The notes beneath the pieces were generated by a model that had not been told where the DNA came from, did no database searches, and saw only the letters and a list, made by a program, of their open reading frames with translations. Positions 42,616-48,467 of a stretch of DNA of 64,000 nucleotides are shown one piece after another (position 1 is the stretch's first letter; the number at the start of each line of letters is the position of its first letter). The DNA lies in assembly GCF_009914755.1 (NCBI RefSeq), contig NC_060927.1; one strand, written 5' to 3'. The translations under genes and the position numbers were made by a program. The stretch is from the human T2T-CHM13v2.0 reference genome, Homo sapiens.

Positions 42616-43445
42616 TGTATATATTTTTTTGAAAAGTGTCCGTTTATGTCCTTTGCCCACTTATAACAAGTATATGAAAAAAAGCTCAGTAGCACTGATC
42701 GTTAGAGAAATGCAAATCAAAGCCACAATAAGATACGATCTCATACCAGTCAGAAGAACTATTATTAAAAAATAAAAAAATATCAGATGCTGGCAAGGTT
42801 GCAGGGAAAAGGAAATGCTTATAAACTGTTGATGGGAATGAAAATTAGAGCAACCAACATGGAAGACAGGGTGGCAATTTCTCAAAGATCAGAGTCAGAA
42901 ATACCATTTGACCTAACAATCCCATTATGGGTATATACCCCCCAAAATGTAAATAATTCTACCATAAAGACACATGAACATGTATGTTCATTGCAGCACT
43001 GTTCACAATAGCAACGACATCGAATCAACCTAAATGCCCATCAATGGGAGACTGGATAAAGAAAATGTGGTACATATACACCATGGAATACCATGCAGCC
43101 ATAAAAAAGAATGACATCATGTTCTTTTGCAGGAACATGGATGGAGCTGAAGTCTACCATCCTTAGCAAACTCACCCAGGAACAGAAAACCAAATACCGC
43201 ATATTCTCACTTATAAGTGGGAGCTAAGTGACGGACACAAAGAGGGAACAGACACTGGTGCCTACTTGAGGGTGGAGGGTGGAAGGAGGGAGATCAGAAA
43301 AAAATAAGTAACGGGTACTAGGCTGAGTACCTGGGTGATGTGATAGTCTACACAACAAAACTCCATGACACATACCTGCACATGTACCCATGAACCTAAA
43401 ATAAAGGTTAAAAAAAGTAAATATTTTGCACACAATCTAAAAAAA
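42616..43445 (+). mobile_element. 5'-truncated, 5'-inverted L1PA/PB 3' end
   Basis: Antisense piece 42616-42661, then sense ORF2 C-terminus and 3'UTR; TSD aaaat(a)tt(c)aacaggga. Confidence 0.88.
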
Positions 43446-43934
43446 TATTCAACAGGGAAATAGAAGACTTGAATAGCACTATAAATCAACTAGACCTAAC
43501 AGATATTGTATTAGTCTGTTTTCATGCTGCTCATAAAGACATACTTGAGACTGGATAACTTATACAGAAAAAGAAGTTTAATGGACTCACAGTTCCATGT
43601 GGCTGGAGAGGCCTCAAAATCATGGTGGAGAGTGAAAGGTGTGTCTTACATGGTGGCAGGCAAGAGTGAATGAGAGCTAAGGGAAAGGGGAAACGCCGTT
43701 ATAAAACCATCACATCTTTTTAGACTTATTCACTACCATGAGAACAGTATGGGAGAAACTGCCCCTATGATTCGATGATCTCCCACTGGATGGATCCCTT
43801 CCATAATATGTGGGAATTATGGGAGCTACAATTCAAGATGAGATTTGGATGGGGACAGAGTTAAACCATATTATTCCAAGCCTGGCCCCTCCCAAATCTC
43901 ATGTCTTCACATTTCAAAACCAATCAATGCTGGG

Positions 43935-43969
43935 GCATTGGTGGTATAGTGGAGAGCATAGCTGCCTTC
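43935..43969 (+). pseudogene. 5' half of tRNA-Gly(TCC), tailless retropseudogene
   Basis: gcattggtggtatagtggagagcatagctgccttc matches 33/35 to recalled tRNA-Gly-TCC nt 1-35; flanked by duplicated aaaaccaatc. Confidence 0.88.
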
Positions 43970-45062
43970 AAAACCAATCTTGCCTTCCCAACAGTCCCTC
44001 AAAGTCTTAACTCATTTCAGCAGTAATGCAAAAGTCTACAGTCCAAAGTCTCATCTGACACAAGGTAAGTCCATTCTGCCTATGAGCCTATAAAATCAGA
44101 AGCAAGATAGTTACTTCTTAGATATAATGGGGTGCAGGCATTGAGTAAATACACCCATTTTAAATGGGATAAATTGGCCAGAATGAAAGGACTAAAGGCC
44201 CCATGCAAGTCCAAAACCCAGCAGGGCAATCAAATCTTAAAGCTCTAAAATGATCTCATCTGGCTCCATGTCTTACATCCAGGTCACACTTCTGCAAGAG
44301 GTACGTCCCATGGTCTTGGGCAGCTCCACCCCTGTGGCTTTGCAGGGTACAGCCCCACTCCTGGCTGCTTTCACAGGCTGCTGTTGAGTGTCTGGCTTTT
44401 CCAGGTGCACTGTGCAATCTGTCAGTGGATCTAGCTTTCTGGGATCTGGAGGATGGTGGCCCTCTTTTCACAGCTCCACTAGGCAGTGACCAAGTGGGGA
44501 CTCTGTTTTGGGGGCTCACACCCCACATATCCCCTTCTGCACTGCCCTATCAGTGGTTCTCCTGAGGGCTCCAACCCTGCAGCACACCTCTGCCTGGACA
44601 TCCAGGTGTTTCCATACATCCGCTGAAATCTAAGTGGAGGTTCCCAAACCTCAATTCTTTACTTCTGTGCACCTGCAGGGCCAAAACCACCTGTAAGCCA
44701 CCAAGGCTTGGGGCTTGCATCATCTGAAGCTATGGCCTGAGCTCTACATTGGCCCCATTTAGCCATGGCTGTGAATGGAGGGCACCAAGTTGTAGGCTGC
44801 ACACAGCAGGGGGTCCCTGGGTCCTGCCCAGGAAACCATTTTTTCCTCTTAAACCTCTAGGTCTGTGATGGGAGGGGCTGCCACCAAGGTCTTTGACATG
44901 CTCTGGAGACATTTTCCCTATTGTCTTGGTGATCAACATTTGGCTCCTTGTTACTTATGCAAATTTCTGTAGCTGGCTTGAATTTCTCCTCAGAAAATGG
45001 GTTTTTCTTTCCTACTGCATCATCAGGCTGCAAAATTTCCAAACTTTTATGCTCTGTTTCCC

Positions 45063-45375
<313 letters not shown>

Positions 45376-46535
45376 TCTGTTTCTCTTTTAAAACTGAATG
45401 CTTTTAACAGCACCCATGTCATCTCTTGAATGCATTGCTGCTTAGAAATTTATTCTGCCAGATACCCTAAATTATCTCCCTCAAGTTCAAAGTTCCACAA
45501 ATCTCTTGAAAAGGGGCAAAATGCCACCAGTCTCTTTGATAAAACATAGCAAGAACCACCTTTACTCCAGTTCCCAACAAGTTCCTCATCTCCATCTGAG
45601 GCCATCTCAGCCTGGATTTCATTGTCCATATCATTACCAGCATTTTGGTAAAAGCCATTCAACAAGTCTCTAGGAAGTTCCAAACTTTCCCACATTTTCC
45701 TGTCTTCTTCTGAGCCCTCCAAACTGTTCCAACCTCTGCCTGTTATCTCATTCCAAAGCCACATCCACATTTTCAGGTATCTTTACAGCAGCGCCCCACT
45801 CCCGGTACCAATTTACTCTATTAGTCCATTTTCATGTTGCTGATAAAGAAATACTCAAGACTGGATGATTTATAAAGAAAAAGAGGTTTAATGGACTCAC
45901 AGTTCCATGTAGCTGGGGAGGCCTCACGGTCATGGTGGAATAGCAAGGGAAGTGTTACCTGACATCAGAAAAGAGAGAATGAGAGCCAAGGGAAAAGGGA
46001 AACCCCTTATAAACCATCAGATCTCTTGAGACTTATTCATCACTACTTACTCCCCGAGAACAGTATGAGAGAAACTGCCCCTATGTTTCAATTATCTCCC
46101 ACAAGTTCCCTCCCACAACATGTGGGATTTATGGGAGCTAACATTCCAGATGAGATTTGGGTGGTGACACAGTCAAACCATATCAGATATCTATAGAACA
46201 CTCCACCGAACAATAACAAAATACATATTCTTCTGTGTGAGAAAAGATATGGTCAGTGGCTCATTCTTTCAAGTGCACATGGAATATTCTGCAGGATAGT
46301 ACATATGCTAGGCCATGAAGGAAGCCTCAAAAAATTTAAAACAATCTGAAATAAAATAATTACATAAAGTATGTTTTCTGACCATAATGAAGTTACACTA
46401 GAAATCAGCAGCAGAAAAATTTGAGATTTGGATACAGATGACCAAATAAGGAACTCATTGCATATGTTATTCTCATGGCCAACAGACTCCTAATTTGATG
46501 TGAATATCTCTTCCTTTGAAAATTTTTCATATCTA

Positions 46536-48467
46536 TGTGTGTGTGTGTATATATATATATTTTAATGTATATAAATATATATAAATTTTTATTTATAAAA
46601 ATTAATATATCATTATATATAAATATAAATTTATATATGTATATTATATATATTTATATATTATATAAATATATACAAATTTTATATATATAAATTTTAT
46701 AATATATAATATATTATACATAAATTTTATAATATAATATATATTATATATAATATATACATATATAAATTATATATAAGATATATTATATATAATATAA
46801 ATTATATATAAATTATATATAATATAAATTATATATAAATTATATATAATATAAATTATATATAAGTATATATAATATATAAATATAAATTTATATATAT
46901 TTATGTATATTATATATAATATAAATTTATATATATTTATGTATATTATATATAATATAAATTTATATATATTTATATATTATAGAGAAATATAAATTTA
47001 TATATATTTCTATATAATATATATACATTTATATATTTCTATATAATATAAATATAAGTTTATATATAAATATAGAAATATATAAAATATATAAATATAT
47101 ATAAATTATATTTATATTTATATATAAAAATTGTATATATTTGTATACAAAAATATATATTTTATATATAAATATATACATATATAATATATAAAAATAT
47201 ATAAAATATATATTTATATTTATAAAAATTTATATTTATATTTATATTTATATATTAAAATATAAATTTATATTTACATATTATATATTTATATATAATA
47301 GATATATATATTTATTTATTATATATAATAGATATATATATCTATTATATATAATAGATATATTATATATAGATATATTTATTATATATAATAGATATTA
47401 TATATAGATATATTTATTATATATAATAGATATTATATATTGATATATTTATTATATATAATGTATCTATTATATATTGATATATTTATTATATATTTAT
47501 ATATAATATATTATATAGATATATTTATTATATATATCTATTAAATATATTTATATATAATATATCATATATTATATATAATATATCATATATATTTATA
47601 TATCTATTATATATATTTATATATATTTAATATAAATGTATATTTATATTATATATTTATGTTATATTTATATTATATAAATATATATTTATATATATTT
47701 ATATTATATATATTTATATGTAATATACATATAATTTATACATAAATTTTATATATAAAAATTATATATATAATTTATATATTAAAAATTCATATATAAA
47801 TTATATATATTAAAAATTTATATATAAATTTTATATATTAAAAATTTATATATAAATTTTATATATTAAAATTTATATATTTTATATATTAAAAATTATA
47901 TATAATTTTATATATTAAAATTATATATACAAATTTTATATGTATAAAAATTATATATATATTATATAAAATGTATATAGAAATATATATTATATAAAAT
48001 GTATATAGAAATATATATTATATATAGAAATATATATACTTATACATAAATATATATGTTTATATTAAATACATATTATATATAAATATATATAAATATA
48101 TACTTATATATATTTATCAAATATGTGTATATTTATATTATATATATTTATATAATATATACATATTTATATTATATATTTATATTATATATAAATATAT
48201 ATTATATATAATACATAAATATTTATATTATAGATATTTATATTATAATATAAATATATATAAATATGTTTTTATATATTATATATAAAATATATTATAT
48301 AAAATATAATATATGTTATATATAAAATTATATATAAATTATATATAACATGTATTTTATATATAATATATATTATATATAACATGTATTTTATATATAA
48401 TATATATTATATATAATTTATATTATATATTATATATAAATATATATGTAAATATATATATAAATTT
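46536..48467. repeat. ~1.9-kb TA-rich degenerate minisatellite
   Basis: Almost entirely A/T, with nested tandem units such as aatataaatttatatatatttatgtatattatatat. Confidence 0.97.

What the first reader, a model, noticed from the sequence alone, without database searches (positions are those of the whole stretch)
43913..43983. Retroposed 5' tRNA-Gly(TCC) half, broken inside the anticodon, inserted in THE1 with a TSD
Seen: the THE1 internal sequence ...atttcaaaaccaatc(a)tgcc... is interrupted by tggg plus a 35-nt segment (43935-43969). aaaaccaatc is duplicated at 43916-25 and 43970-79, and there is no poly-A. Known: the segment matches tRNA-Gly-TCC nt 1-35 (GCGTTGGTGGTATAGTGGTGAGCATAGCTGCCTTC, 2 mismatches, one at a CpG) and stops after TC of the TCC anticodon. 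Tailless tRNA retropseudogenes made by L1 are described, and 5' Gly halves are abundant in sperm and stressed cells. Inference: this is a germline fossil of either an anticodon-cleaved tRNA half or internal priming at the anticodon loop (ttc/aa microhomology; bottom strand TTTT/GA is an L1 endonuclease-like site). The extra tggg may be pre-tRNA leader, which would identify the source gene.
Basis: partly seen in the sequence, partly recalled or inferred. Interest (0 to 1): 0.7.

Follow-up and report, generated by a model that had tools for sequence, protein, structure and literature searches.

The report
Tailless tRNA-Gly retrocopy in an LTR element
A 39-base scrap copied from the front half of a glycine tRNA was pasted by the LINE-1 machinery into an old retrovirus-like repeat; it is an ordinary member of a published class, and this very locus appears to be in the published catalogue.

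Summary
Window 43935-43969 matches positions 1-35 of the human tRNA-Gly(TCC) genes at 33 of 35 bases. It is preceded by four extra bases (TGGG). The insert is flanked by a 14-nt target-site duplication and has no A tail. It interrupts a high-copy LTR-element internal sequence: 7 of 7 aligned paralogs read straight through the site.

It is not new. It meets the criteria of a "tailless retropseudogene" (Schmitz 2004; Noll 2015). Table S2 of Noll 2015 has a row at hg19 chr3:34742646-34742685, GlyTCC, which is almost certainly this locus.

My survey of this genome covered 100 of 105 Gly-TCC 5' matches:
- 29 are full-length.
- 71 all stop inside or just after the anticodon loop, at positions 33-39. 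None stops at positions 40-63.
- 0 of 71 has an A tail.
- The empty target carries the tRNA's C36 in register in 39 of 52 clear cases.

This supports annealing of the nicked target to the loop. Pre-tRNA leaders are recognisable in at least 22 of 71 copies. The window's TGGG matches no present-day gene leader.

Internal priming is favoured over a pre-cut tRNA half, but the sequence alone cannot settle this. Interest is low.

The parts
43913..43915 (+). TTC of the host repeat, immediately before the left TSD copy. It is identical to tRNA positions 33-35 (microhomology).
   Evidence: sequence. Present in 7 of 7 empty paralogs. Register analysis.
43916..43930 (+). Left (5') copy of the target-site duplication, AAAACCAATCAATGC. 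This is the 14-nt consensus site plus one inserted A.
   Evidence: Alignment with 7 paralogs. The exact 10-nt core was seen.
43931..43934 (+). Four extra bases, TGGG, between the TSD and tRNA position 1. They are either a pre-tRNA leader remnant or untemplated bases.
   Evidence: No extant gene leader matches. One other copy, L092, also has TGGG upstream.
43935..43969 (+). Copy of tRNA-Gly(TCC) positions 1-35, with 33 of 35 bases identical. The last three bases, 43967-43969, could equally be host TTC.
   Evidence: Gene identity from ARAGORN.
43970..43983 (+). Right (3') copy of the target-site duplication, AAAACCAATCTTGC, with one A>T change against the consensus.
43507..46185 (.). Host: a full-length LTR retroelement. 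LTRs lie at about 43507-43873 and 45817-46185. It has a 5-bp TSD, GATAT, at 43502-43506 and 46186-46190. The insert lies 40 bases inside the left LTR boundary.
   Evidence: Direct repeats with about 2310 spacing. LTR alignment gave 63 mismatches in 356 aligned columns, JC K=0.20. The family name THE1/MaLR and the minus orientation are recalled or inferred, not tested.

Best explanation
This is a LINE-1-made tailless retropseudogene of tRNA-Gly(TCC), with no present function.

The L1 endonuclease nicked the bottom strand of an old LTR element in the A-rich stretch TTTC/AAAACC. The freed DNA end annealed to the single-stranded anticodon loop of a tRNA-Gly(TCC) transcript instead of to a poly(A) tail. 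In the register the product requires, the target pairs with U33 U34 C35, mismatches C36, then pairs with A37 A38, G39 (as G-T) and C40.

L1 reverse transcriptase copied from C35 back to position 1, plus four more bases. Those four are a short unprocessed 5' leader or untemplated additions. Repair of the staggered break then duplicated 14 nt of target.

What is shown: the insert, its source RNA family, the TSD, the absence of a tail, the microhomology, and membership of a large class with the same anatomy.

What is inferred: the role of L1, the exact nick position, and that priming was internal on a whole (pre-)tRNA rather than on an already cut half.
For: Anatomy:
- 7 of 7 paralogs are empty at the site, and the duplication is 14 nt.
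- The insert matches the Gly(TCC) genes at 33 of 35 bases.

Class survey, 100 of 105 genome matches analysed:
- 71 are truncated, and all end at positions 33-39 (38: 37, 37: 12, 35: 8, 39: 5, 33: 4, 34: 3, 36: 2). None ends at positions 40-63.
- 52 have clear TSDs of 9-24 nt.
- 0 of 71 has 6 or more A after the break.
- The empty site matches the tRNA in register at C36 in 39 of 52 (chance 0.25, p = 6e-14).
- It matches at C35-C36 in 18 of 52, and at positions 33-36 in 6 of 52.

Leaders. The three bases upstream of +1 are GAT in 8 of 71 copies, which is the leader of the L015 gene. They are GCG, GTG or GCA in 14 of 71, which is the chr1 array leader and its CpG-decay forms. Both give p of about 1e-5. 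Unprocessed nuclear pre-tRNAs were therefore frequent templates.

Literature. Noll 2015 (PMC5322556; abstract, sections 15 and 16, and passages of other sections read) defines the class, gives the target consensus TT/WAAAAWW and argues for internal priming. Its Table S2 lists chr3:34742646-34742685 GlyTCC. It also lists GlyTCC 67 times against GlyGCC 13. By my recall GlyGCC is the abundant sperm half, so retrocopy numbers do not follow half abundance.
Against: - L1 involvement is inferred from anatomy only. No L1 sequence is attached.
- If the TTC belongs to the TSD, the nick would lie at TTGAA/AT on the bottom strand, which is not a canonical L1 endonuclease site. If the nick is the canonical TTTT/GA, the primer's last T faces C36, a terminal mismatch.
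- The window's copy lacks C36, unlike most of the class. By my reading of the listing, only 4 of 71 read TTC followed directly by A.
- The microhomology and the sharp stop at A38 would also be produced by a pre-cut half annealing by its 3' end. They do not by themselves prove internal priming.
- TGGG matches no extant leader.
- The match to Table S2 rests on coordinate offsets, not on a liftover.
Confidence: 0.88

Rival explanations
1. Same L1 machinery, but the template was an already cleaved 5' half of tRNA-Gly-TCC or its precursor, cut in the anticodon loop by an RNase such as angiogenin, RNase T2 or RNase L. The 3' end of that half annealed to the nicked target.
For: - The insert ends in the anticodon loop.
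- All 71 truncated copies end at positions 33-39. That is where halves end.
- A 2025 preprint (10.1101/2025.02.02.635956; passages read) proposes pre-cut halves as the source of the 1-37 nt tRNA parts in tRNA/L1 chimeras.
- Microhomology is compatible with 3'-end annealing of a half.
Against: - At least 22 of 71 copies carry recognisable pre-tRNA leaders. By my recall, known stable halves come from mature, 5'-processed tRNAs. The window's copy also has 4 extra 5' bases.
- 0 of 71 has an oligo(A) tail.
- Apparent end points are spread over 33-39 rather than fixed.
- Noll 2015 reports finding no truncated RNAs or oligoadenylated truncated copies for 5S and U2 (section 16).
- GlyTCC retrocopies (67) far outnumber GlyGCC (13) in Table S2.
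Confidence: 0.2
2. A DNA-level event: a piece of a tRNA-Gly gene or pseudogene was captured as filler DNA during repair of a double-strand break, without reverse transcription.
For: Short templated insertions at repaired breaks exist (general knowledge). There is 3-nt microhomology at one junction.
Against: - A clean 14-nt duplication of the target is the signature of a staggered cut with fill-in, not of end joining.
- The insert starts within 4 nt of the RNA's 5' end, and 70 other copies in the survey share that start and the stop in the anticodon loop. That points to an RNA with defined ends.
Confidence: 0.02
3. Not an insertion at all: the segment belongs to the host repeat's consensus, or resembles the tRNA by chance.
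For: None found.
Against: - 7 of 7 aligned paralogs, and all 39 further copies scored, lack it.
- The reversed-pattern control gave 0 genome hits against 53 and 105 for the real patterns.
Confidence: 0.01

Closest known systems
Tailless retropseudogenes (Schmitz, Churakov, Zischler, Brosius 2004, Genome Res 14:1911; Noll et al. 2015, Genome Biol Evol 7:889, PMC5322556)
   Same: - Complete at the 5' end.
- Truncated at the 3' end in a single-stranded loop.
- No oligo(A) tail.
- TSD within the 8-35 nt range.
- Target complementary to the last bases of the copied RNA.
- A-rich target.
- Processed or unprocessed tRNA templates.
- A GlyTCC row at the matching hg19 position in Table S2.
   Different: Nothing of substance. 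Within the Gly-TCC set it is a minority variant: the junction lies at or before C35, whereas 49 of 71 reach A37 or A38. Its target has A, not C, in register with C36 (8 of 52 do).
Classical L1-mobilised processed pseudogenes and SINEs (Alu, poly(A)-tailed small-RNA retrocopies)
   Same: Target-primed reverse transcription at an A-rich site, and a TSD of typical length.
   Different: No A tail. Priming is by a few bases of internal complementarity instead of a T-tract/poly(A) duplex.
tRNA-half/L1 chimeric insertions (bioRxiv 10.1101/2025.02.02.635956)
   Same: The tRNA part is about 1-37 nt, that is, a 5' half.
   Different: No L1 sequence is joined to this copy. The whole insert is 39 nt between the TSD copies.
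Stress- or sperm-type 5' tRNA halves (tiRNA/tsRNA)
   Same: Same span of the tRNA, ending in the anticodon loop.
   Different: Those are RNAs from mature tRNA. This is genomic DNA with 4 extra 5' bases, and the class often keeps pre-tRNA leaders. No evidence links it to a cut RNA.

Membership tests
Tailless retropseudogene (criteria of Noll 2015, Methods) | Derived from a small RNA and (almost) complete at the 5' end (at most 5 nt overhang) | tested here: met
   Starts at tRNA position 1 with 4 extra bases.
Tailless retropseudogene (criteria of Noll 2015, Methods) | Truncated at the 3' end by at least 10 nt, at a loop or other single-stranded region; length at least 30 nt | tested here: met
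   Ends at position 35 of a 72-nt gene, inside the anticodon loop, and is 35 nt long.
Tailless retropseudogene (criteria of Noll 2015, Methods) | No oligo(A) tail | tested here: met
   The only A run (AAAA) is host sequence, present in 7 of 7 empty paralogs.
Tailless retropseudogene (criteria of Noll 2015, Methods) | Flanking TSD of 8-35 nt with at least 70% identity | tested here: met
   14 nt, with one substitution and one 1-nt indel between the copies.
Tailless retropseudogene (criteria of Noll 2015, Methods) | Target site complementary to the terminal 2-18 nt of the copied RNA | tested here: met
   TTC (positions 33-35) is shared. In that register the target also matches positions 37, 38 and 40.
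Tailless retropseudogene (criteria of Noll 2015, Methods) | Target resembles TT/WAAAAWW (section 15) | tested here: inconclusive
   The target reads CATTTC/AAAACC. It is A-rich and fits the L1-like TTTT/GA on the bottom strand, but it does not fit the published consensus exactly.
Tailless retropseudogene (criteria of Noll 2015, Methods) | Made by L1 reverse transcriptase and endonuclease | not testable with these tools
   Inferred from the anatomy only.
Functional tRNA gene | Complete cloverleaf recognised by tRNA finders | tested here: not met
   ARAGORN found 0 genes in 43000-45000. Rfam gave no tRNA match.
Retrocopy of a nuclease-cut mature 5' tRNA half | Mature 5' end without leader, and a fixed nuclease-type 3' end | tested here: inconclusive
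   There are 4 extra 5' bases of unknown origin. The 3' end is ambiguous over positions 32-35 because of microhomology.
THE1/MaLR LTR retrotransposon (host) | Two LTRs of about 370 bp starting TG and ending CA, a 5-bp TSD, high copy number | tested here: met
   The LTR pair and the GATAT duplication; the right LTR now starts TC, read as TG with one change. 1269 first-look candidates in the genome. The family and subfamily name was not tested, because no repeat library is on hand.

The most novel reading that the evidence does not exclude
The insert, and with it the 70 other Gly-TCC copies that stop in the anticodon loop, are reverse-transcribed copies of RNA halves that had already been cut in germ-line nuclei, some from unprocessed pre-tRNA. 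The genome would then hold a dated archive of ancient tRNA-half ends. The window's C35 end would record a cut inside the anticodon.
Probability: 0.15. Interest if true: 0.45.

Novelty: already known. Interest (0 to 1): 0.1.

Why it matters
As a single locus it matters little. It is a neutral fossil in a gene-free stretch, belongs to a class described in 2004 and 2015, and is apparently listed in that catalogue.

The class-level numbers gathered here have some modest use for the still open question of internal priming versus pre-cut halves:
- every truncated Gly-TCC copy stops in the anticodon loop;
- the target is strongly complementary up to A38 but not beyond;
- pre-tRNA leaders are frequently kept;
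- there are no A tails.

Tried and rejected
- Rfam on 43800-44100, and on the insert alone, gave no tRNA match. There were 4 weak miRNA-model hits well below their gathering scores, and 0 hits. ARAGORN found nothing. Neither tool is built for half a tRNA.
- Source gene from the leader. TGGG was compared with positions -4..-1 of all 29 full-length copies: TGCG x21, TACG, AGAT, GTAC, CGGA, CAGG, GGAC x2 and TGTG. None is identical. The best is 3 of 4, with the chr1 array leader, which is not beyond chance. One other truncated copy (L092) also has TGGG upstream. That makes 2 of 71 with GGG, where about 1.1 is expected.
- G3>A as a mark of a special source gene was rejected. The heads of the 71 truncated copies are GCA 24, GTG 17, GCG 16 and other 14, which is ordinary two-way CpG decay.
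- Alternative parse with an 11-nt TSD plus 8 extra bases (ATGCTGGG). This is less likely than a 14-nt TSD with a 1-nt insertion, because the first four 'extra' bases would have to equal the next four host bases by chance.
- Dating. Only a crude estimate is possible: 2 substitutions over 61 site-lineages gives 0.033 per site, with a 95% interval of 0.004-0.118. This is lower than the host's LTR-LTR K of 0.20, consistent with nesting. No primate genomes are on hand for an empty-site test.
- Schmitz 2004 (PMC524414) is not held. Its content is cited through Noll 2015 and from recall.

Full report
**1. What is in the sequence**

One search shows the following, reading along the + strand:
- host TTC at 43913-15;
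- AAAACCAATCAATGC at 43916-30;
- TGGG at 43931-34;
- a 35-nt segment at 43935-69;
- AAAACCAATCTTGC at 43970-83, after which the host sequence continues.

I searched the window's own assembly with a 151-nt stretch around the site. There were 1269 first-look candidates, of which 40 were scored. Besides the locus itself, 39 copies matched the right flank. Of these, 37 also matched the left flank as a separate piece. None matched the middle. The two pieces overlap by about 14 nt in the other copies.

An alignment of 7 such copies reads uninterrupted through the site in 7 of 7. The window therefore carries 54 extra bases.

The duplicated target is the 14-nt AAAACCAATCATGC. The left copy has one added A and the right copy has one A>T change. 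The AAAA after the insert is host sequence, so there is no A tail.

**2. What the insert is**

The 35-mer has 53 matches in the genome at up to 3 mismatches. The same pattern read backwards has 0.

The full-length matches are tRNA genes that ARAGORN calls Gly(tcc). It places the anticodon at position 34 in four of the five it called (L016, L037, L059, L060), and at position 35 in L015, where its gene call starts one base earlier.

Against these genes the window differs at G3>A, which lies in a CpG, and at T19>A. The copy stops after T34 C35. Because TTC (positions 33-35) is also the host's own sequence at the site, the last unambiguous tRNA base is C32.

ARAGORN and Rfam do not call the fragment.

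**3. The host**

Direct repeats about 2310 bases apart align as two LTRs of about 370 bp. The first begins TG; the second begins TC at the aligned bases, which I read as TG with one change. Both end CA. The whole element spans 43507-46185 and is flanked by a 5-bp duplication, GATAT.

The LTRs differ at 63 of 356 aligned columns, giving a Jukes-Cantor K of 0.20.

The name THE1/MaLR and the minus orientation are my recollection, supported by the look of the sequences next to the LTRs. No repeat library was available to test them.

The insert's own divergence is lower: 2 substitutions over 61 site-lineages, or 0.033 per site, with a 95% interval of 0.004-0.118. This fits a later, nested insertion, but the estimate is very imprecise.

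**4. Survey of the class in this genome**

I took a 29-mer from a real gene, positions 4-32, which leaves out the CpG at positions 2-3. It gave 105 matches at up to 3 mismatches and 0 for the reversed control. 100 of them were listed. I fetched the flanks and analysed all 100.

*Where the copies end.* 29 copies extend to position 64 or beyond. They include the 22 copies of the chr1 array. One of the 29 tested is called tRNA-Glu(ttc) by ARAGORN, and another gets no gene call.

The other 71 copies all stop at positions 33-39:

| Last matching position | Copies |
|---|---|
| 38 | 37 |
| 37 | 12 |
| 35 | 8 |
| 39 | 5 |
| 33 | 4 |
| 34 | 3 |
| 36 | 2 |

None stops between positions 40 and 63.

These are not 71 independent events. 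L061 and L100 share flanks, as do L055 and L097, and L080 holds a tandem pair.

Of the 8 copies scored as ending at position 35, my reading of the listing is as follows. Four read TTCTAA, that is, C36>T in a copy that really reaches A38. Four read TTC followed directly by A. The window is one of these four.

*Target-site duplications.* 52 of the 71 have a clear TSD of 9-24 nt, mostly 14-16 nt. None of the 71 has 6 or more A after the break.

*Complementarity of the target to the tRNA loop.* In the 52 clear cases, the empty site carries the tRNA's own letters in register far more often than chance:
- C36 in 39 of 52 (p = 6e-14 against 0.25);
- C35-C36 in 18 of 52;
- positions 34-36 in 10 of 52;
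- positions 33-36 in 6 of 52;
- A at position 37 in 47 of 52, and A at position 38 in 43 of 52.

There is no enrichment at G39 (10 of 52) or C40 (4 of 52). Target and RNA are therefore complementary across the loop and not into the stem.

The window's target has A in register with C36, as 8 of 52 do. This explains why its copy lacks C36.

**5. The extra 5' bases**

31 of the 52 clear cases have 3 or more extra bases. The window is counted there with 9, because the ungapped aligner stopped at the 1-nt indel. By hand the number is 4.

Among all 71 truncated copies, I tallied the three bases upstream of +1:
- GAT in 8 copies, matching the leader of the L015 gene (p = 1.6e-5);
- GCG, GTG or GCA in 14 copies, matching the chr1 array leader and its CpG-transition forms (p = 4.7e-6).

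Unprocessed pre-tRNAs were therefore common templates, as Schmitz 2004 is quoted as reporting (Noll 2015).

The window's TGGG equals no leader of the 29 full-length copies. The best match is 3 of 4, which is not beyond chance.

**6. Mechanism**

The anatomy is that of target-primed reverse transcription without a tail.

In the only register that yields the observed product, the target pairs with U33 U34 C35, mismatches C36, then pairs with A37, A38, G39 (as G-T) and C40.

The nick position is ambiguous. It is either the canonical TTTT/GA, which puts a terminal mismatch opposite C36, or it lies three bases further, which makes TTC part of the duplication.

I favour internal priming on a whole (pre-)tRNA, at about 0.6-0.65, for four reasons:
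- pre-tRNA leaders are kept in many copies;
- there are no oligo(A) tails;
- the apparent ends are spread over positions 33-39;
- Noll 2015 Table S2 lists GlyTCC 67 times against GlyGCC 13, GlyCCC 16, GluCTC 16, GluTTC 7, LysCTT 28 and ValCAC 15. By my recollection GlyGCC is the dominant sperm half.

A pre-cut half, at about 0.2, is not excluded. Microhomology and the stop at A38 fit it too, and a 2025 preprint proposes it for tRNA/L1 chimeras (passages read).

**7. Comparison with what is known**

The class is in print. Noll 2015 (PMC5322556; I read the abstract, sections 15 and 16, passages of other sections, and parts of supplement 2) defines tailless retropseudogenes by exactly the features met here and discusses both mechanisms.

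Its Table S2 is titled 'all perfect human tailless retropseudogenes'. It has the row chr3 34742646 34742685 chr1.trna117-GlyTCC.

The offset of that row from the window's T2T position is 40.7 kb. For the neighbouring entry at 15.8 Mb the offset is 38.3 kb. In one search the only Gly-TCC core match on this chromosome between 18.4 and 122 Mb is the window's. So the row is almost certainly this locus, although I could not run a liftover.

Searches of the paper library are.

**8. Verdict**

The feature is an already known, catalogued and functionless retrocopy. Interest is 0.1.

Noticed in passing
L080 (G000:C10:22508247-22508732): Two Gly-TCC 5' fragments stand 57 bases apart in tandem. Each is followed by the same sequence, CTTCCAAAATACCC..., so the layout is TSD-tRNA-TSD-tRNA-TSD. 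This is either a local duplication of a tailless copy with its TSD or a double insertion.
   Followed up: no
L061 vs L100 and L055 vs L097: Two pairs of truncated Gly-TCC copies on different chromosomes share the same flanks. These are probably segmental duplications, or insertions inside a repeated element. The 71 copies are therefore at most about 68 events.
   Followed up: partly
window 43829-43913: An inverted repeat spans the LTR end and the adjacent internal sequence (GAGATTTGG...CCAAATCTC). It is conserved in the 7 paralogs and gives weak sub-threshold hits to miRNA models: MIR2275, and mir-1261 on 43839-43899 (bits 23, 23 and 17 against gathering scores of 60-91). A fourth weak hit, mir-1267, lies at 43800-43855. 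The tRNA insert lies just after this hairpin.
   Followed up: no
L016-L036, L049 (G000:C1:160.577-160.733 Mb): 22 tandem units spaced about 7.4 kb apart. Each matches the Gly(TCC) gene. ARAGORN, run on one unit only (L016), finds tRNA-Glu(CTC), Gly(TCC), Asp(GTC) and Leu(CAG) there. The Gly gene is identical in all but the outermost copy, which has diverged.
   Followed up: partly
L068, L069 (G000:C1:160.875 and 160.957 Mb): Genes whose 5' half resembles Gly-TCC (2 mismatches in 29). ARAGORN calls L068 tRNA-Glu(ttc); L069 was not tested.
   Followed up: no
window 45163-45366 and 46529-46999: An Alu-like dimer lies inside the host element's internal region (direct repeat D5). A long TA-rich low-complexity block lies just beyond the right LTR.
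   Followed up: no
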